From Escherichia coli (GTDB lineage Bacteria; Pseudomonadota; Gammaproteobacteria; Enterobacterales; Enterobacteriaceae): a DNA stretch of 64,000 bases. The position numbers and the translations under genes were made by a program. Below the pieces are notes generated by a model. The model had not been told where the DNA came from. It searched no databases and was given only the letters and a program-made list of their open reading frames with translations. Location of the stretch: NCBI RefSeq assembly GCF_048403405.1, contig NZ_CP183129.1; one strand, given 5' to 3'. Shown here piece by piece: positions 46,073 to 53,833 of the stretch (its first letter is position 1; each line of letters starts with the position of its first letter).

Positions 46073-49000
46073 TCAGAACGACCAGTTCGCACCAGCCACC
46101 GCGTTCCACGGGGATTCCACACCGGCACCATGGCTATACCCCACCCCGAGATGCCCGCTTAACGAACTGCTGAATGAGGCTTTAATACCTGCCTGATATA
46201 TTCCACGTCTGCCCGACAAATCATTGACAAAATTACCGTCATTATTCACTTTCACCCGGTTATCATCGACAAATTCTTTGCGCACAGCCGCCTTCAGCCA
46301 CGGCTCAACTTCCATGCCGTTCCCCAGACGCATGTTGTAACTCAGCGTTGCGCCCAGTTCACGATATATACTGCGGGTATCGACTGATTTCGATTCCATG
46401 CCATTGGATAAATGATATTCGGGGTTATCAGCGGTGAACCCCGTTAACGATGCATACGGCGTCAGGTTCCAGTTACCATCGGTAAATCGCATCCCGGTTT
46501 CAATGTGCCCCCCCAGCCCGTTGCTATGATAACTGCCGTTGGCGGCTCCACCGCTGCTCATTTTACCGGCTACGTTACTTTCAAAGCGGTTCAGCTTCAC
46601 GATACCGTCCAGATAGAAACCACTTTCATGTTCCCAGCTGGCATAGCCCCCCAGAGAATAACTGCCCACACTGCCATGTCCTCCACGATCAAAACCGATA
46701 TGTGAATGGGAATAACCCATAAAAGCGCCCAGCGTCGCAATCCCCTCAGGAATATCATTACGACTGTCGATCCCCACTGTCATTCCGGTCAGCGTCTGCT
46801 CAAACCCGGCACCCGCATCGGTGGTGACATTATTACGGGTGTTATACGTCGTCCCCCAGACATTATTGTTGTGTGGACTCGCTTTCATTATGTTCAACCG
46901 CTCGCGAATACTGTTTAGCTCAGCATCAAAGACCAACGGTAATGTTGCTGCCATATTGAGTACGGCAGCCGTAGAAGGCGTGATGCGTTTCTCCGGAACG
47001 GGTGTCGGCGTTGGCTCGGGAGTCGGGTCTGGATTTGGATTTGGATTTGGATTTGGATTTGGATTTGGGTTCGGATTTGGATTTGGATTTGGATTTGGGT
47101 TCGGATTTGGGTTCGGATTTGGGTTCGGGTTCGGGTTCGGATTTGGATTTGGGTTGACATTATTAGTCAGGTTCCAGTTGCTGTTGCCGTCGCTTTTCAG
47201 GACATACTCATAGGTCCCAAGATCAACGAAACCGCCGGTATTGCCCAGCGTAAACGACGCATCCCCTCCCCCTGTTTTCACCAGCGTCATCGCATCGTCA
47301 GACTGAGGGCTGACGCCGGTATCCTGAACAAAGATTTTAAAATTACCAGTGGCGTTGTTGTTGACGATCAGTTGATCGCCCCGGGAGCCTGCAACGTTGG
47401 TATGCAGGTAGAAATTACCGCTGCCGGAAAGTTCACTGGTGGTCAGCGTATTGTAGATATCGTTAGTTGTGGCAGGCGCTGATAAATAAACATCACCGTC
47501 GTTGAGTAGCAAACTGTTTACTCTATATTCGCAGTTGCTGGTGCCTGCACAGGAATTATTGCTGTTAAGCCAGACACTGCCCCGGCTGGCAGCCGTCAGG
47601 TCGGCAAGCGTCGTATCAACGCCATTGCCGATAGTGAATGTCGCGCTATCGGTAATCCGGATCGCCCCTTCGAGTTTAACTGGCGTAACATTATCCCGTG
47701 GCGTCATTAACGACAGGCTTCCTGTCGCGCCACTGACCGATGCATCCGCCAGCGTACCTGCGTAGACGATTGCCGTCCCACCAGAGACCTGTAGATCTTC
47801 TGCCCGGGCCAGAGCCTGAAACTCATCTTTTGACCGCCCAAGGGTATATTGCCCACCAGAGTTAACCTTTGTGGCGGAGTCCTGACCCAGGTTTTGCATT
47901 GCACCACCCTTGTCAACCGTGGAGTCACGGGCTTCGGTACCTGCTAATACCAATAAATTACCGCCATTTTCCAGCAACATATTGGTCGCTAAATTGCTGG
48001 CAATGGAAAAGGTGCCGTACTGGTGCGTACCGCTGATTTCAATACCGTTAGCCGTGCTCGTCTGGAGAGCGGCACCGCTGTTCTGGACGATATCTGTCGC
48101 TTTGCCATTATCGTTGACTGTCAGCGTTCCGCCTTCATTGATCGTTGTTTTTATTGCCTCTCCGTTAGCTGAAACTGTTTGTATTCCGCCGTCGTTAATT
48201 GTTGTCTCATTTGCCACACCCTCGATGATTTGTTCACCGCCAGTGAGCGTCGTGCCTGTCGCAGTGGCTTTTGTTTTGACGATCTCCCGACCGCCCGCAT
48301 TAACCTGTGTTTTGGCGGAAGTGGTGTCTGACTCCACGGTTAACACGCCGCCATTTGTCAGCAGGATATTGTTCGCCGCACCCTGCTCGATGCTGAACGC
48401 GACGCCATCAGCGCGTGTCCCTGTGACCCGCGTCGCCCTGGTGGTTGCAACCAACGCGCCCTGACTACTCTGCTGTATCCCCGTTGCGCTGCCTTTCTCC
48501 CGCACATCGAGTATGCCGCCATTGTTAAGTCTGGTGGTATATGCTACGGCCTCCTCGTGGACAATCAGCTTACCGCCAGCATCAACGATGGTATCTACCG
48601 CCGAGGTTTGAGCTACGACCGTCAGTTGGCCGGTATTTTCCAGCACAACATGCTCAGCCCTGCCTCCGGTAATAGTGAAGTGAGATGACCTCTGGTATCC
48701 ATCAATATCAGTCCCCGCGCCCGTATTGGCAACTAAAGCGCTCCCCGTGTCCAGGTAAACCCCATGTGCGATACCGCCGGTATCGACAATCAGCGTGCCT
48801 CCGGCGCGAATATTGCTGCCAGTTGCCGTACCTCCTTTCTCAACAACCTGCTTGCTCCCGGAAGAGATATTTGTTGTGTCAGCTTTCCCGCCGCTCTTGA
48901 TATTTTGCGTGCCACTGTTGATATTGGTTCCCGTAGCAATACCATGATTATAAATATTCTGTGTACCGCCATTAATTATGGTATTAGTCGCGTTCCCGGC

Positions 49001-49450
49001 AACATCCATGGCCCCGCCGTTATCTATTCGGGTCGCATCAGCTTTAGCATTCGTTAAAACTGACATTGTTCCTTTATCGTTAATTATCGTCCCTGTAGAA
49101 ATTCCTCCCTCACTAATTGTCTGGCTGCCACCGTTAATGACTGTATTATTAGCCTGCCCCTGATAAGAGCCATGACCAGATACCTCTTGATGTCCACCAG
49201 TATCAATAACACTTCCATTAGAAATCCCGCCATATACCTCCTGATTGCCGTGATTGATGATATGAGCATTATTTGTTGTACCTCGTTCATCTACTCTTTG
49301 GCTGCCGTCTACAGTCTCATCATTTACAACGCCAATAACATTAGAAGTGAAGGCCGTCATCCCAGGCGGGGCATATATCATGGCAGCTATCAATAAGGAA
49401 AGTACTGAGCGGTGAAAATAATAGCGACTGATTCTGTTCATAAATTTCAT
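46073..49450 (-). CDS. AIDA-I/pertactin-type autotransporter adhesin with (Asn-Pro)n linker
   Basis: Signal peptide, Gly/Thr-rich repetitive passenger, (NP)n tract, C-terminal beta-barrel ending ...GANWSF; start taken at internal Met (ORF track extends to 49570). Confidence 0.85.
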   Translation of the reverse strand: MKFMNRISRYYFHRSVLSLLIAAMIYAPPGMTAFTSNVIGVVNDETVDGSQRVDERGTTNNAHIINHGNQEVYGGISNGSVIDTGGHQEVSGHGSYQGQANNTVINGGSQTISEGGISTGTIINDKGTMSVLTNAKADATRIDNGGAMDVAGNATNTIINGGTQNIYNHGIATGTNINSGTQNIKSGGKADTTNISSGSKQVVEKGGTATGSNIRAGGTLIVDTGGIAHGVYLDTGSALVANTGAGTDIDGYQRSSHFTITGGRAEHVVLENTGQLTVVAQTSAVDTIVDAGGKLIVHEEAVAYTTRLNNGGILDVREKGSATGIQQSSQGALVATTRATRVTGTRADGVAFSIEQGAANNILLTNGGVLTVESDTTSAKTQVNAGGREIVKTKATATGTTLTGGEQIIEGVANETTINDGGIQTVSANGEAIKTTINEGGTLTVNDNGKATDIVQNSGAALQTSTANGIEISGTHQYGTFSIASNLATNMLLENGGNLLVLAGTEARDSTVDKGGAMQNLGQDSATKVNSGGQYTLGRSKDEFQALARAEDLQVSGGTAIVYAGTLADASVSGATGSLSLMTPRDNVTPVKLEGAIRITDSATFTIGNGVDTTLADLTAASRGSVWLNSNNSCAGTSNCEYRVNSLLLNDGDVYLSAPATTNDIYNTLTTSELSGSGNFYLHTNVAGSRGDQLIVNNNATGNFKIFVQDTGVSPQSDDAMTLVKTGGGDASFTLGNTGGFVDLGTYEYVLKSDGNSNWNLTNNVNPNPNPNPNPNPNPNPNPNPNPNPNPNPNPNPNPNPNPNPNPDPTPEPTPTPVPEKRITPSTAAVLNMAATLPLVFDAELNSIRERLNIMKASPHNNNVWGTTYNTRNNVTTDAGAGFEQTLTGMTVGIDSRNDIPEGIATLGAFMGYSHSHIGFDRGGHGSVGSYSLGGYASWEHESGFYLDGIVKLNRFESNVAGKMSSGGAANGSYHSNGLGGHIETGMRFTDGNWNLTPYASLTGFTADNPEYHLSNGMESKSVDTRSIYRELGATLSYNMRLGNGMEVEPWLKAAVRKEFVDDNRVKVNNDGNFVNDLSGRRGIYQAGIKASFSSSLSGHLGVGYSHGAGVESPWNAVAGANWSF
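47031..47153. repeat. hexanucleotide tandem repeat (GGATTT/GGGTTC)n, ~20 units, encoding (Asn-Pro)n
   Basis: Directly visible run ggatttggatttggattt...gggttcggatttgggttc; in-frame inside the autotransporter. Confidence 0.9.
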
Positions 49451-50046
49451 CCTCTGAAAAATGAATACTGAGTAGCGTCTAAGTAACCTAAGCTCGGCTG
49501 CAACATCAGCCCGCAGGCACCAGACCAGGGGATTCATCCTGAAGAGACAGCGCAGGTGTATTGTGTTCACCGCTCACCAAAGACATCATGATGAAATGAT
49601 GATATCCCGCATAAGAAAGAGGCATTTTTTAAACGCAGTGCGCTGAAGTGTAGTTGGATAAAAAATCACTCTTTTCAGATAATACTGTCGTACGCTTATC
49701 TTTCGACAATGAGGCCGTCGGCAAAATAAAATGACTAATGTAATCGTTGCTGATGAATATCTTCTGCTCACATAAAAATCACACAATAATATTGATAAAT
49801 CAGATTATCTTACCTTTACAACATTGCGTTAACAGTCAATGACACTTCTTGAATAAAAATATTGTCAATCAATGAGTTATTTCTCATTTGAGATTATTCT
49901 CATTCCCGTAAAAAACATAATTCCTATCATCACCGTCACGCTCATTTTGAATTATCTGAATAATAGCGAGCGTTCTTTAGTTAAGCAGATCTTAATTGAA
50001 GACGAAATTATTGTGTGTGCAACTTACTTAATACCGGACATCTAAG

Positions 50047-50391
50047 TTGAAGAAAAAAATACTTGCCTTCGGGCTTATCTCAGCATTGTTCTGCTCCACG
50101 CCAGCGATGGCGGATATGAATCGCACCACGAAAGGTGCATTGCTAGGCGCAGGCGTTGGTTTACTTACTGGCAATGGTGTTAATGGCGTACTGAAAGGTG
50201 CAGCTGTTGGCGCTGGTGTTGGTGCAGTAACAGAAAAAGGCCGCGACGGTAAAAATGCGCGTAAAGGTGCAAAAGTGGGTGCCGCCGTTGGTGCTGTCAC
50301 TGGCGTTCTGACCGGCAATGGCCTCGAAGGGGCGATTAAAGGTGCCGTGATTGGCGGTACGGGTGGTGCAATTCTGGGTAAAATGAAATAA
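50047..50391 (+). CDS. ymgG: Gly-rich small protein YmgG
   Basis: 114-aa product with signal peptide and GxxGxG-rich repeats. Confidence 0.85.
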
Positions 50392-50730: not shown

Positions 50731-50743
50731 TATTTAATATGTT

Positions 50744-50773
50744 ACCGCGTCGATGAATTCGACGCGGTATTTT
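50744..50773. terminator. hairpin terminator between convergent ymgD and ycgH
   Basis: accgcgtcg-atgaatt-cgacgcggt followed by atttta. Confidence 0.6.
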
Positions 50774-50785
50774 AGCTAACGGGGA

Positions 50786-53434
50786 TCAGAACTTATATTT
50801 CAGGCCCACCATCACTGCGGTGTCATTGTAGCCATTATCACCCAGCTGCACGCCCACATTACCCCAGACGCTGGCCGCCGGATTCAGATTGCCATTTACG
50901 CCAAGTTTAATTTCCCCCAGATTACGCGCCCCGTCTTGTTCAACTTTCACACCGTTCATTGAGACAGCAAAATCTTTACTGTTATGGATCCAGTTCATTT
51001 CAACAAAAGGTTCAAAGTCGTCACCGTGCGGACCGCTGTTTTTCTCCTGAGTACGAATAAAGGTACGGAAGCCGAGTCGGGTCTGGATGTTGTTATTTGC
51101 GTCATTCTCAATACGTGAGCCATTGGCTTCCGTGTGCGCATTATGATCGACGCCCATCCAGATAGCCTGTGCCTGTGGCTGGAAGATCCACGTATATTTC
51201 GCCGCTTCCAGACCAAAGGATTTATTCAGGGCAAAACCGTAACCCGCTTCCAGCGAGACGGTTGCACCTTTCGCGCTATAGGATTCATAGGCTAACTCAT
51301 CCCCTTTCACCGAGTTTTTAAACCAGCTATATTGCGCCCAGGCGTCAATGTATGCGCCTTTTTTACTGATGTCATCGGCAAACCAGGTGGCATACAGCCC
51401 TGCGCTATAGCCTCTGACACTCCCTTTCGAACGATAATCCGACACGCTGGAATGAGTTGAGTTGTAGTCGCGGGCATAACCAGCCATCACTCCCAAACGC
51501 CAACTGTCACTGTCGGTAAAACCACCGGTTAACAGATCCGCCCCTAACTGCGAGACGTAGCGATGCGAGGTCGTTCTCAACTGTCCGTTGCTGTCACGCC
51601 AGGCATTATGCCCGCCAATTTGACGTAGCCAAAGTCGGCTTGAACGCTCCTGTTCAGTTACAGGATCGATGTAGCGCGTTTCACCTGCACGATCGTTCAG
51701 ACGCATAACAAAAAGAGTGTTAGCGGCTGCCAGATTGGCGACGTAACTTCCAGCTTCGGGGCGCAGGACGGGGGTAGGCGCAACAGTAGGCGCTGAACTT
51801 CCTCCGGAGTTTGTTTCACCGCCGCTCGTTGCCTGGAAGTTAGTCAGATACCAGTTTTTATTGGTCGCTTCGGTATTACCTCGGGTTAATGAATATTCGT
51901 AGGCACCGGCGAAAATCCTCGAATCCTTAATAAATTCCCCATTTGATTCCCCCTCAACGCTGATAATCTCTATCCCATTTAACGTGTAAGCCCCGCTGCC
52001 CCCAGCATTGGTAACTTTTACTCGGGTTGTTCCGGAGGTATTTCCATTAATAACAACTTTATCAGTAGCTGAATTATCATCACCCAATTCAGTTCTGAGA
52101 TGCAATACGCCATTATTACCAACGTAATTTTCAGTTATTGTTAACCTTGTTGGTTCGAAATCCTTTCCATCTGCCCGGGAAATATAGACCGTACTATTGT
52201 CAACCGTGAGCTTGCTCACCGTTGAGTCAGTTTTAATATCCCAGGTACTATTATCTGAAAGCGACAGATAGGTATGAGTGCTATCATCTGTTGAAAGATT
52301 GGCTGAACCCGTTATTTTTGAATTAGATGCATCGATGGCCAAATGACCTTTAATATTATTAATAAAAACATCTGCAGCCGATGATACCTCACTATCCGTA
52401 ATGGTCACGTTACTCGTCTCATTTTTATTGTAGAGGATTTCATTTGCTGACCGTAGTGAGCTACCAGATAAAATATCTACCGTTGCTTCCTGACCATTTA
52501 TGGAAGACTCCAGCACAATTCCAGCCCCCTGATGCGCGACTGCAGATGTATTTTTCAGCGTCACCTTGCCGCCATTATAAATTTTAGCAATCGCGGCGTC
52601 AGGACCCGTTGTATGAATTTCTCCCTGGTTAAATGAAACAGTCCCCTGGCGAGCAGCGATGGCATGAGCATTGTCCCCATACGTGGTAATATCAACATCG
52701 GTTAATGTAACGCTGGCATTGGTATAATCAAGCTTGCTACCCGCCTTGACGACAGTGCCATTAGCGTAAGCGGCATAACTTTCTGTTCCGAGGGTTGTTA
52801 TCTCCCCTTTTGCCATATCCAGTTTTGCTTTGGCGTTATTTTCATTACTTCCTGTATCGGCAGTACTTTCTTCATCAAGAGAAGATACACACGCACGCGC
52901 GCTTCCGGGAGATGCACAAGCAAGAACGCCGACTGCGTGATTACCCGCAGTAACAATAAAAGTATTACCTTCGTCAGATAAATGGGGGTTAACCGAACCG
53001 TCAGTGTTGACTCTTATTATGGTATCAGTATTCAGGTTTCCATTCGTTTGACTTAGCAAACCAATTGAGTAATCCCCCGTTGTGACAATCGTATTATTAC
53101 CCTGCAAAATAACTGCACCGCCATATTCACTTACGACTGCGCTAGCTGTATATACTGTGCTTAGAGGATTATTGCCAGAAGGATATAAACCACCCGTTGT
53201 TACAATGACGCCTTTGTTAATGGTTAAATTGCTACCCTCTCCTGCAACAGATACCCCGTAACTTCCATTACCCGTTGTTATAACTAGCGCATTATCAATA
53301 TCTTTTACTTCTCCATCTTTTATTGCCACAGCATGTTTATATTCATCGTACTGAATAAACTGTTCAGCATATGCATTACCCACCGCCAGAGCAATAAGTC
53401 CTAAACTAAACCCGGGGAGTTTTTTCAGTTTCAT
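50786..53434 (-). CDS. ycgH: autotransporter adhesin YcgH, apparently full-length here
   Basis: 882-aa ORF with signal peptide MKLKKLPGFSLGLIALAVGNAYA, repetitive passenger and barrel ending ...VGLKYKF; positioned between ymgD and ymgF. Confidence 0.8.
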   Translation of the reverse strand: MKLKKLPGFSLGLIALAVGNAYAEQFIQYDEYKHAVAIKDGEVKDIDNALVITTGNGSYGVSVAGEGSNLTINKGVIVTTGGLYPSGNNPLSTVYTASAVVSEYGGAVILQGNNTIVTTGDYSIGLLSQTNGNLNTDTIIRVNTDGSVNPHLSDEGNTFIVTAGNHAVGVLACASPGSARACVSSLDEESTADTGSNENNAKAKLDMAKGEITTLGTESYAAYANGTVVKAGSKLDYTNASVTLTDVDITTYGDNAHAIAARQGTVSFNQGEIHTTGPDAAIAKIYNGGKVTLKNTSAVAHQGAGIVLESSINGQEATVDILSGSSLRSANEILYNKNETSNVTITDSEVSSAADVFINNIKGHLAIDASNSKITGSANLSTDDSTHTYLSLSDNSTWDIKTDSTVSKLTVDNSTVYISRADGKDFEPTRLTITENYVGNNGVLHLRTELGDDNSATDKVVINGNTSGTTRVKVTNAGGSGAYTLNGIEIISVEGESNGEFIKDSRIFAGAYEYSLTRGNTEATNKNWYLTNFQATSGGETNSGGSSAPTVAPTPVLRPEAGSYVANLAAANTLFVMRLNDRAGETRYIDPVTEQERSSRLWLRQIGGHNAWRDSNGQLRTTSHRYVSQLGADLLTGGFTDSDSWRLGVMAGYARDYNSTHSSVSDYRSKGSVRGYSAGLYATWFADDISKKGAYIDAWAQYSWFKNSVKGDELAYESYSAKGATVSLEAGYGFALNKSFGLEAAKYTWIFQPQAQAIWMGVDHNAHTEANGSRIENDANNNIQTRLGFRTFIRTQEKNSGPHGDDFEPFVEMNWIHNSKDFAVSMNGVKVEQDGARNLGEIKLGVNGNLNPAASVWGNVGVQLGDNGYNDTAVMVGLKYKF

Positions 53435-53833
53435 AGATTAACCATCCATTCATTGGATTAACAAACATTCCTGGTCAAATAACCTATGAGTTCAGATTAC
53501 CAAAACGGAGGGTAAAGACAAAAACAAAAGCACAAGAAATTTAAATAGATAAACAGCGACAATACATAAATGATAAATAAGTCAGCATTATCATTTTTCA
53601 CCTTATTTTCATGACATTGATCACTTTGGAGTGACGATTTTGTTTAACAAATAACTCTTCGACATCAAAATTATTAATAGTTGCCATGGGAATTATTTCG
53701 ATGATATATAAAAACAACTGTGATAACACCAGGGTTGGCAACTATTTGCGCAATAATACCTTTCCTTCAATGATCCAGGCGTTCACTGCCAGCAACCCAT
53801 TCAGCCGCATACTGACAGTGAGAAACTGAAAGA

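What the first reader, a model, noticed from the sequence alone, without database searches (positions are those of the whole stretch)
50786..53434. ycgH autotransporter appears full-length, whereas it is recalled as a split pseudogene in K-12
An uninterrupted 882-aa ORF with signal peptide and C-terminal barrel suggests this strain keeps a functional adhesin that the laboratory strain has lost.
Basis: partly seen in the sequence, partly recalled or inferred. Interest (0 to 1): 0.35.

Follow-up and report, generated by a model that had tools for sequence, protein, structure and literature searches.

The report
Intact autotransporter at ycgH locus
This E. coli strain carries an unbroken copy of a surface-protein (autotransporter) gene at the site where K-12 has the ycgH pseudogene, but it is a different, already catalogued version of the gene (ECIAI39_1904 family), so the finding is real but ordinary.

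Summary
Window 50786-53434, on the minus strand, is one uninterrupted 882-codon ORF. It has a Sec-type signal peptide, a predicted beta-helix passenger, an autochaperone domain, a linker helix and a 12-strand autotransporter barrel. It lies between ymgF and ymgD, the K-12 ycgH position.

K-12 ycgH is a pseudogene, with Q507* (CAA>TAA) and a 1-base deletion at codon 857. However, the window gene is not its intact counterpart. The signal peptide (23/23) and the C-terminal 331 aa (98.5%) are shared, but the 528-aa passenger is only about 40% identical (dS 1.8 versus 0.07).

RefSeq names the two forms differently: "ECIAI39_1904 family autotransporter adhesin" (window, exact protein on 192 public contigs) and "autotransporter YcgH". 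Intact K-12-type alleles exist elsewhere.

The window-type passenger occurs in 1,786 of 5,426 complete E. coli genomes. In an even 60-record sample only 6 were intact; 46 shared one frameshift. The ORF is not truncated, since homologues are 880-892 aa.

Adhesin function and expression remain untested. Novelty: already known. Interest is low.

The parts
50786..53434 (-). Complete autotransporter gene, 882 codons plus stop (ECIAI39_1904 family; occupies the ycgH locus)
   Evidence: ORF list. 100% identical to the annotated CDS WP_000768532.1 in TUM14771. The exact protein is on 192 public contigs.
53366..53434 (-). Signal peptide, aa 1-23 (MKLKKLPGFSLGLIALAVGNAYA); shared with K-12-type ycgH
   Evidence: Read from the sequence. 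23/23 aa identical to the K-12-type allele. AF2 pLDDT below 50 for residues 1-19.
51782..53365 (-). Passenger domain, aa 24-551: predicted right-handed beta-helix; the allele-specific (divergent) part of the gene
   Evidence: About 40-42% aa identity and dS 1.8 against the K-12-type passenger. All-beta AF2 model; pertactin 1DAB match. GC 43% versus 51% for the C-terminal part.
52889..52918 (-). Cys173...Cys182 pair (LACASPGSARAC), the only cysteines; conserved in the K-12-type allele and P0121; possible disulfide loop
   Evidence: The disulfide is inferred, not tested.
51887..52225 (-). Autochaperone domain type 1 (aa 404-516) at the C-terminal end of the passenger
   Evidence: Pfam PF18883, E 6e-30. 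IcsA autochaperone 3ML3/5KE1 sequence and fold matches.
51716..51760 (-). Linker alpha-helix (aa 559-573), predicted to sit in the barrel pore
   Evidence: AF2 secondary structure. Aligns to the AIDA-I transport unit 4MEE.
50789..51637 (-). 12-strand outer-membrane beta-barrel (aa 600-882), ending in ...KYKF
   Evidence: Pfam PF03797, E 6e-41. Foldseek 4MEE TM 0.95, rmsd 1.7 A. dN/dS 0.02-0.14.
53254..53257 (-). G4 run (gene nt 178-181), intact here; loss of one G here is the frameshift shared by about 77% of genomes carrying this passenger type
53360..53362 (-). Codon 25, CAG here; TAG in the O145 RM12367 and O1:H42 CLSC36 alleles
50862..50865 (-). G4 run followed by T (gene nt 2570-2574), the counterpart of the G5 run in K-12-type alleles; K-12 has lost one G there (frameshift at codon 857)
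53435..53833 (-). AT-rich (34% GC) ymgF-to-gene intergenic region; presumed promoter/regulatory region, about 96-98% conserved with K-12 and the other alleles
   Evidence: For the K-12 orthologous region, an RpoD SELEX site with an H-NS flag (PMC3946193) and a sigma-S ChIP-seq peak (PMC4447067). No promoter was mapped here.
50743..50769 (.). GC-rich hairpin between the convergent ymgD and autotransporter genes; candidate shared terminator
   Evidence: Terminator-like scan and sequence. The T-run is adjacent only on the + (ymgD) side.

Best explanation
The gene is an intact allele of the classical (type Va, AIDA-I-type) autotransporter that occupies the ymgF-ymgD (ycgH) locus of E. coli. Specifically it is the 'ECIAI39_1904 family' passenger variant.

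Proposed mechanism:
- The 23-aa signal peptide directs Sec export.
- The C-terminal 12-strand barrel is inserted into the outer membrane (by BAM, from family knowledge), with the aa 559-573 helix in its pore.
- The roughly 530-aa passenger is threaded out and folds from its C-terminal autochaperone into a beta-helix displayed on the cell surface.
- There it most likely acts as an adhesin or aggregation/biofilm factor.

Shown: ORF integrity, domain architecture, predicted fold, locus identity, allele relationships and population state. Inferred: secretion route, surface display, adhesin activity and regulation (probably H-NS-silenced and sigma-S-associated, by analogy with the conserved K-12 upstream region).

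At the population level the locus carries at least two deeply diverged passenger types on a shared signal peptide and translocator. Most lineages have inactivated either type independently. This strain is one of a minority, about 10% of carriers of this type and about 3% of complete genomes, with an intact copy.
For: - ORF and domains.
- AF2 model: pLDDT 86.4, pTM 0.80, with beta-helix, helix and barrel.
- Structure matches: 4MEE AIDA-I transport unit (TM 0.95), pertactin and IcsA autochaperone.
- Synteny with K-12 ycgH.
- RefSeq name and exact-sequence recurrence.
- Mosaic allele structure: identity 0.98 for nt 1-60, 0.3-0.7 for nt 61-1634, 0.92-1.0 from nt 1695 to the 3' end. dS is 1.81 in the passenger versus 0.07 in the C-terminal part.
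- Barrel under purifying selection (dN/dS 0.02-0.14); passenger about 0.5 within types.
- Population: 1,786 genomes carry this passenger and 2,106 carry the K-12 type at >=80% coverage; about 20% of sampled rows are short B2-strain remnants.
- Fully classified 60-row sample: 46 frameshifted, 7 other pseudogenes, 1 fragment, 6 intact (searches cover two further records, H11 and H2).
- Literature: ECIAI39_1904 is listed among autotransporter genes in an analysis of VFDB virulence genes, present in ST38/405/648 and missing from ST131 (PMC5654935).
Against: - There is no experimental evidence that this protein is expressed, exported or adhesive. It is absent from the functionally reviewed autotransporters (PMC9289746), and searchable papers mention ycgH mainly as a neutral integration site.
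- The simple sigma-70 scan found no good minus-strand promoter in the intergenic region.
- Widespread independent inactivation suggests the gene is dispensable or costly, so an intact ORF need not mean current use.
- Passenger dN/dS of about 0.5 is compatible with relaxed constraint.
Confidence: 0.85

Rival explanations
1. One reading: this is simply the undamaged version of the K-12 ycgH gene, i.e. the same adhesin that K-12 lost.
For: Same locus. Identical signal peptide and a 98.5% identical linker plus barrel. K-12 ycgH is indeed broken by a nonsense codon and a frameshift.
Against: The passenger is only about 40-42% identical with several indels, and dS is saturated at 1.8. RefSeq gives the two forms different names. 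The real intact counterpart of K-12 ycgH exists in ABWA45 and ECONIH4 and differs from K-12 by 3 nucleotides.
Confidence: 0.1
2. The ORF is intact but cryptic: transcriptionally silent (H-NS) or under relaxed selection and on its way to decay, so the strain gains no adhesin in practice.
For: About 90% of sampled carriers of this allele type are inactivated, by at least five different lesions: loss of a G at nt 178-181, G12*, Q25*, a 98-nt deletion, and other stops or frameshifts. The AT-rich upstream region (34% GC) and passenger (43% GC) fit H-NS targets. An H-NS flag is reported for the K-12 orthologous spacer (PMC3946193). Passenger dN/dS is about 0.5.
Against: The barrel shows strong purifying selection (dN/dS 0.02-0.14). 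The exact 882-aa protein recurs on 192 contigs, and related intact 882-892-aa forms have hundreds to more than 1,000 database members. A sigma-S RNA polymerase peak at the K-12 promoter region suggests the promoter can be engaged.
Confidence: 0.3
3. The passenger is not an adhesin but has another role (enzyme, toxin, or phage/immune decoy).
For: Function is untested. 'Adhesin' comes only from a database family name.
Against: No protease, lipase or other catalytic domain matched in Pfam or NCBIfam. The passenger is a plain beta-helix resembling pertactin. The nearest named families by profile are adhesins (MisL, AIDA-I, ShdA, YfaL), though all score below their curated cut-offs.
Confidence: 0.1

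Closest known systems
ECIAI39_1904 family autotransporter adhesin (RefSeq name; the gene is listed among autotransporter genes in an analysis of VFDB virulence genes)
   Same: The protein is identical to WP_000768532.1 and recurs exactly on 192 public contigs. Same locus and same length. Reported present in ST38, ST405 and ST648 and missing from ST131 (PMC5654935), which fits the deletion remnants seen in B2 strains.
   Different: Nothing differs; it is a member. The family has no experimental characterisation in the searchable literature.
E. coli YcgH (K-12 pseudogene b4491; intact as WP_000768545.1 or WP_001563811.1 in other strains)
   Same: Same chromosomal slot. Identical signal peptide, 98.5% identical linker and barrel, colinear homologous passenger with a conserved Cys pair and autochaperone, and similar length of 882-887 aa.
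   Different: Passenger is about 40-42% identical with a 30-aa N-terminal indel and other gaps, and dS is saturated. RefSeq gives it a different name.
AIDA-I (E. coli diffuse adherence adhesin; transport unit structure 4MEE)
   Same: Autochaperone, linker and barrel align at E 4e-84. The fold matches at TM 0.95 and rmsd 1.7 A. Same type Va architecture.
   Different: 35% identity in the transport unit. The passenger lacks the AIDA 19-aa repeats and is much shorter. The NCBIfam AIDA-I model scores 322 bits against a cut-off of 1200.
Salmonella MisL (fibronectin-binding intestinal colonisation autotransporter)
   Same: Among characterised adhesin models in NCBIfam, MisL scores best (403 bits); its best-scoring stretch is aa 545-882. 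Similar overall size, 955 aa. The 2022 review places MisL in a group of extracellular-matrix-binding adhesins (PMC9289746).
   Different: Score far below the equivalog cut-off (1297). The match is carried mainly by the C-terminal third; a second matched stretch was not located.
Pertactin (Bordetella P.69, 1DAB)
   Same: The beta-helix passenger fold plus the Pfam Pertactin match at the passenger C-terminus.
   Different: 13% identity and TM about 0.5. No RGD-type motif was examined.

Membership tests
Classical (type Va) autotransporter, AIDA-I type | N-terminal Sec signal peptide | tested here: met
   MKLKK n-region, hydrophobic core and AYA|E site read from the sequence. Low-confidence N-terminal 19 residues in the AF2 model. 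No dedicated predictor was available.
Classical (type Va) autotransporter, AIDA-I type | C-terminal 12-strand beta-barrel translocator (PF03797) with a terminal aromatic residue | tested here: met
   PF03797 E 6e-41. TIGR01414 373 bits. Foldseek 4MEE TM 0.95. The sequence ends in KYKF.
Classical (type Va) autotransporter, AIDA-I type | Alpha-helical linker through the barrel, and an autochaperone at the passenger C-terminus | tested here: met
   Helix at 559-573 in the AF2 model. PF18883 AC_1 E 6e-30. IcsA autochaperone matches.
Classical (type Va) autotransporter, AIDA-I type | Beta-helical passenger | tested here: met
   All-beta AF2 model with pLDDT mostly above 90. Pertactin 1DAB hit at E 3e-10. 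This is a prediction, not a solved structure.
Classical (type Va) autotransporter, AIDA-I type | Actual surface display or secretion of the passenger | not testable with these tools
   Needs expression, protease shaving or immunofluorescence.
ECIAI39_1904 family autotransporter adhesin | Near-identity to the RefSeq family exemplar across the full length | tested here: met
   100% nucleotide identity to the CDS named so in TUM14771. The exact protein carries this name in NCBI and UniRef. No HMM for this family was in the NCBIfam copy searched.
Autotransporter YcgH (K-12 type) | Same chromosomal locus between ymgF and ymgD | tested here: met
Autotransporter YcgH (K-12 type) | Full-length sequence similarity, including the passenger | tested here: not met
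   62% identity overall but about 40-42% in the passenger. RefSeq names the two forms differently.
MisL / AIDA-I / ShdA / YfaL / ECSE_1600 equivalogs | Score above the NCBIfam curated cut-off | tested here: not met
   458/2335, 403/1297, 322/1200, 178/2249 and 163/1459 bits. The best-scoring stretches lie in the C-terminal part of the protein.
Functional adhesin | Demonstrated binding or aggregation phenotype | not testable with these tools
   No experimental paper found.

The most novel reading that the evidence does not exclude
The ycgH locus may behave as a passenger-swapping site. A conserved 'chassis' (promoter region, signal peptide, linker and barrel; dS about 0.07) carries at least three deeply diverged passenger types: the window type, the K-12 type, and the variant P0121, recorded under 'unclassified ...' (name cut off), which is itself mosaic with a K-12-like autochaperone. 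Between the first two types the passenger dS is about 1.8. These types would be maintained by diversifying or balancing selection on a surface-exposed antigen or receptor. Repeated independent inactivation in most lineages would then reflect a cost of display, for example from immunity or phage. The break-points fall at the signal-peptide cleavage site and at the start of the linker.
Probability: 0.3. Interest if true: 0.35.

Novelty: already known. Interest (0 to 1): 0.15.

Why it matters
There is little direct consequence. The gene and its exact protein are already in RefSeq and UniRef, and it is listed among autotransporter genes in an analysis of VFDB virulence genes.

The useful outcomes are corrective:
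- 'ycgH' in genome comparisons hides two non-equivalent passenger alleles.
- Presence/absence calls by nucleotide similarity overstate function, because about 90% of sampled carriers of this allele are inactivated.
- The K-12 lesions are now pinned to two specific mutations, only 3 nucleotides away from an intact natural allele. That makes restoring the K-12-type protein easy for anyone who wants to test function.

If the protein does act as an adhesin, its patchy intactness could contribute to lineage differences in colonisation.

Tried and rejected
- Looked for the published K-12 promoter motif (TTGACA-19-TATAAG, PMC3946193) in the K-12 locus. The only match, with one mismatch, lay inside the ycgH ORF, not in the intergenic region, so no promoter position is claimed.
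- The sigma-70 consensus scan gave no convincing minus-strand promoter upstream of the gene.
- Considered that the ORF might be truncated relative to relatives. Rejected: homologues at this locus are 880-892 aa. Longer proteins (MisL, AIDA-I, ECSE_1600) match through the C-terminal autochaperone and transport unit (AIDA-I aa 428-882, ECSE_1600 aa 343-881; MisL best stretch aa 545-882) and score below family cut-offs.
- Considered import of the passenger from another genus. The search of 1.8 billion representatives found no closer relative than the K-12-type/P0121 cluster (44%). The next hits are Providencia and Enterobacter proteins at 35-36%, so no donor was identified.
- Considered phase variation at the G runs. 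They are only 4-5 bases long, too short to argue for it; they look like ordinary mutational hot spots.
- run_python could not see loci fetched as the 2nd to 5th call of a parallel batch. Sequences were brought in through alignments instead.
- Genome contigs and metagenome scans were not run, because their cost was not justified for this question.
Full report
OBSERVATION

Window 50786-53434 holds a single uninterrupted ORF of 882 codons on the minus strand: ATG at 53434, stop at 50786-50788. RefSeq annotates the identical sequence with the same ends in E. coli TUM14771, as WP_000768532.1, 'ECIAI39_1904 family autotransporter adhesin'.

The N-terminus, MKLKKLPGFSLGLIALAVGNAYA|EQ, has the form of a Sec signal peptide. 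This was read from the sequence. Pfam finds an autochaperone (AC_1, aa 404-516, E 6e-30), a Pertactin match (406-531) and the autotransporter beta-domain (601-860, E 6e-41).

LOCUS

The neighbours are pdeG, ymgF, [gene], ymgD, ymgG, ymgJ and, further on, minE. This is the K-12 ycgH position, with the window inverted relative to K-12.

K-12 LESIONS

K-12 ycgH (b4491, 2,648 nt) splits into a 506-aa and a 344-aa ORF in the same frame. I compared it with an intact allele of the same type from strain ABWA45 (WP_000768545.1, also 882 aa). K-12 differs at only three positions:
- T1042A, a missense change (F348I).
- C1519T, which gives Q507* (NC_000913.3 position 1221119).
- Loss of one G from a G5 run at nt 2566-2570 (codon 857). 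This replaces the last 25 residues, including the terminal Phe of the barrel.

The window gene and K-12-type ycgH are mosaically related:
- Nucleotides 1-68 (signal peptide) are about 98% identical, 23/23 at the protein level.
- Nucleotides from about 1655 to the end (linker and barrel) are also about 98% identical, 98.5% over 331 aa.
- The passenger in between (aa 24-551) is only about 40-42% identical at the protein level, with a 30-aa N-terminal indel and several others.

Nei-Gojobori estimates give dS 1.81 and dN 0.52 for the passenger, against dS 0.07 for the C-terminal part.

The two passengers are colinear and clearly homologous. They share a Cys pair (LACASPGSARAC versus LACSSPGESRTC) and a more conserved autochaperone. 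But they are old, distinct alleles, and RefSeq names them differently. So the strain has not kept the adhesin that K-12 lost. It carries a different passenger on the same chassis.

The 880-aa variant P0121, whose NCBI and UniRef names place it under 'unclassified ...' (names cut off in the output), has yet another N-terminal passenger joined to a K-12-like autochaperone. In a search of 1.8 billion cluster representatives, nothing was closer to the window passenger than that cluster (44%). The next hits are Providencia and Enterobacter proteins at 35-36%.

NOT TRUNCATED

Full-length proteins at this locus are 882-892 aa (ECIAI39_1904 family), 882-888 aa (YcgH) and 880 aa (P0121).

STRUCTURE AND MECHANISM

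An AlphaFold2 model built on a 48-sequence alignment has mean pLDDT 86.4 and pTM 0.80. It shows an all-beta passenger, a helix at 559-573 and a 12-strand barrel.

Foldseek matches the AIDA-I transport unit 4MEE (TM 0.95, rmsd 1.7 A, 35% identity), other autotransporter barrels, pertactin 1DAB and the IcsA autochaperone. Sequence search of the PDB agrees: 4MEE at E 4e-84 and IcsA at about 1e-20.

NCBIfam profiles for ECSE_1600, MisL, AIDA-I, ShdA and YfaL all match, with best-scoring stretches in the C-terminal part, and all score far below their cut-offs.

The architecture is that of a classical type Va, AIDA-I-type autotransporter. The secretion route follows from established knowledge of that family: Sec export, BAM-assisted barrel insertion, and passenger extrusion with autochaperone-nucleated folding. 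Adhesin activity is inferred from family resemblance only.

No paper in the searchable library characterises YcgH or ECIAI39_1904. ycgH appears mainly as a neutral integration site in K-12 engineering. ECIAI39_1904 is listed among autotransporter genes in an analysis of VFDB virulence genes, present in ST38, ST405 and ST648 and missing from ST131 (PMC5654935).

REGULATION (INFERRED)

The 399-bp upstream spacer is 34% GC and about 96-98% conserved across all allele types, including K-12. For the K-12 spacer, genomic SELEX lists an RpoD site with an H-NS flag (PMC3946193), and ChIP-seq lists a sigma-S RNA polymerase peak (PMC4447067). No promoter could be placed by consensus scanning.

POPULATION STATE

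Among 5,426 complete E. coli genomes:
- 1,786 carry the window-type passenger.
- 2,106 carry the K-12 type at 80% coverage or more.
- About one fifth of sampled rows carry short remnants of a K-12-type gene with stops, indels and two large deletions. CFT073, UTI89 and ST131 are examples.
- About 6% have no match.

I classified every row of an evenly spaced 60-record sample of window-type carriers:
- 46 are split by loss of one G in the G4 run at nt 178-181.
- 7 are flagged as pseudogenes with internal stops or frameshifts. For example, CLSC36 has G12* and Q25*. Outside the sample, O145 RM12367 has Q25* plus a 98-nt deletion.
- 1 is a fragment.
- 6 are intact.

That puts intact copies at about 10% of carriers and about 3% of genomes. 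A further record from the first search (CS5L, 98.5% identical) is also frameshifted.

The barrel shows strong purifying selection (dN/dS 0.02-0.14). The passenger shows about 0.5 within types. This is compatible with either diversifying pressure or relaxed constraint.

VERDICT

The ORF is real and intact, and it belongs to a known, named family. K-12 is indeed defective at this locus, but in a different passenger allele. Function and expression are unproven, and the prevailing trend at the locus is decay. Novelty is 'already known' and interest is low. The most novel reading not excluded is a conserved export chassis carrying ancient, exchangeable passenger types under diversifying selection, with recurrent loss. 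It is plausible but untested.

Noticed in passing
window 46073-49570 (-): An intact AIDA-type autotransporter sits at the site where K-12 has only the 344-bp ycgI pseudogene remnant. The ORF is 1,165 aa from GTG, and RefSeq annotates 1,124 aa as 'YpjA/EhaD'. It is a paralogue of the real ypjA (about 92% nt identity to ypjA at 2.77 Mb in BW25113) and has a long (NP)n / PT-rich linker. Only about 3 of 30 evenly sampled genomes have a full-length copy at >=96% identity; roughly half of the sampled rows (13 of 30) show only a ~440-bp remnant (13% of the query). So both autotransporter pseudogenes flanking ymgD-ymgJ in K-12 are intact in this strain.
   Followed up: partly
P0121 (WP_130236523.1; NCBI/UniRef names read 'MULTISPECIES ...' and 'unclassified ...', cut off), compared: A third passenger variant of the ycgH-locus protein (880 aa). 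The N-terminal ~390 aa differ from both E. coli types, the autochaperone region is nearly identical to the K-12 type, and the barrel is roughly 90% identical by eye. This suggests recombination break-points inside the passenger as well.
   Followed up: partly
window 50743-50769: An 11-bp-stem GC-rich hairpin lies between the convergent ymgD (+) and autotransporter (-) genes, 17 nt after the autotransporter stop codon. The T-run is adjacent only on the ymgD side. It may be a shared terminator.
   Followed up: no
window 50028-50318 (-), antisense to ymgG (50047-50391 +): A 96-aa Pro/Ala/Thr-rich ORF lies on the strand opposite the glycine-zipper gene ymgG. It is most likely a mirror-frame artefact of the Gly/Ala-rich coding sequence, not a gene.
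   Followed up: no
L006 (CFT073) 3767-4519, versus window 54184-55749: pdeG (EAL-domain c-di-GMP phosphodiesterase) is intact in the window (521-aa ORF; RefSeq annotates 507 aa) but is annotated as an N-terminally truncated pseudogene in CFT073. The decay in B2 strains thus extends beyond the autotransporter to the neighbouring gene.
   Followed up: no
window 53254-53257 and 50862-50865 (gene nt 178-181 and 2570-2573): The two most widespread frameshifts at this locus are the common window-type split and the K-12 lesion. Both are single-G losses in short G4/G5 runs, so these are mutational hot spots. The gene contains 15 runs of four or more G.
   Followed up: partly
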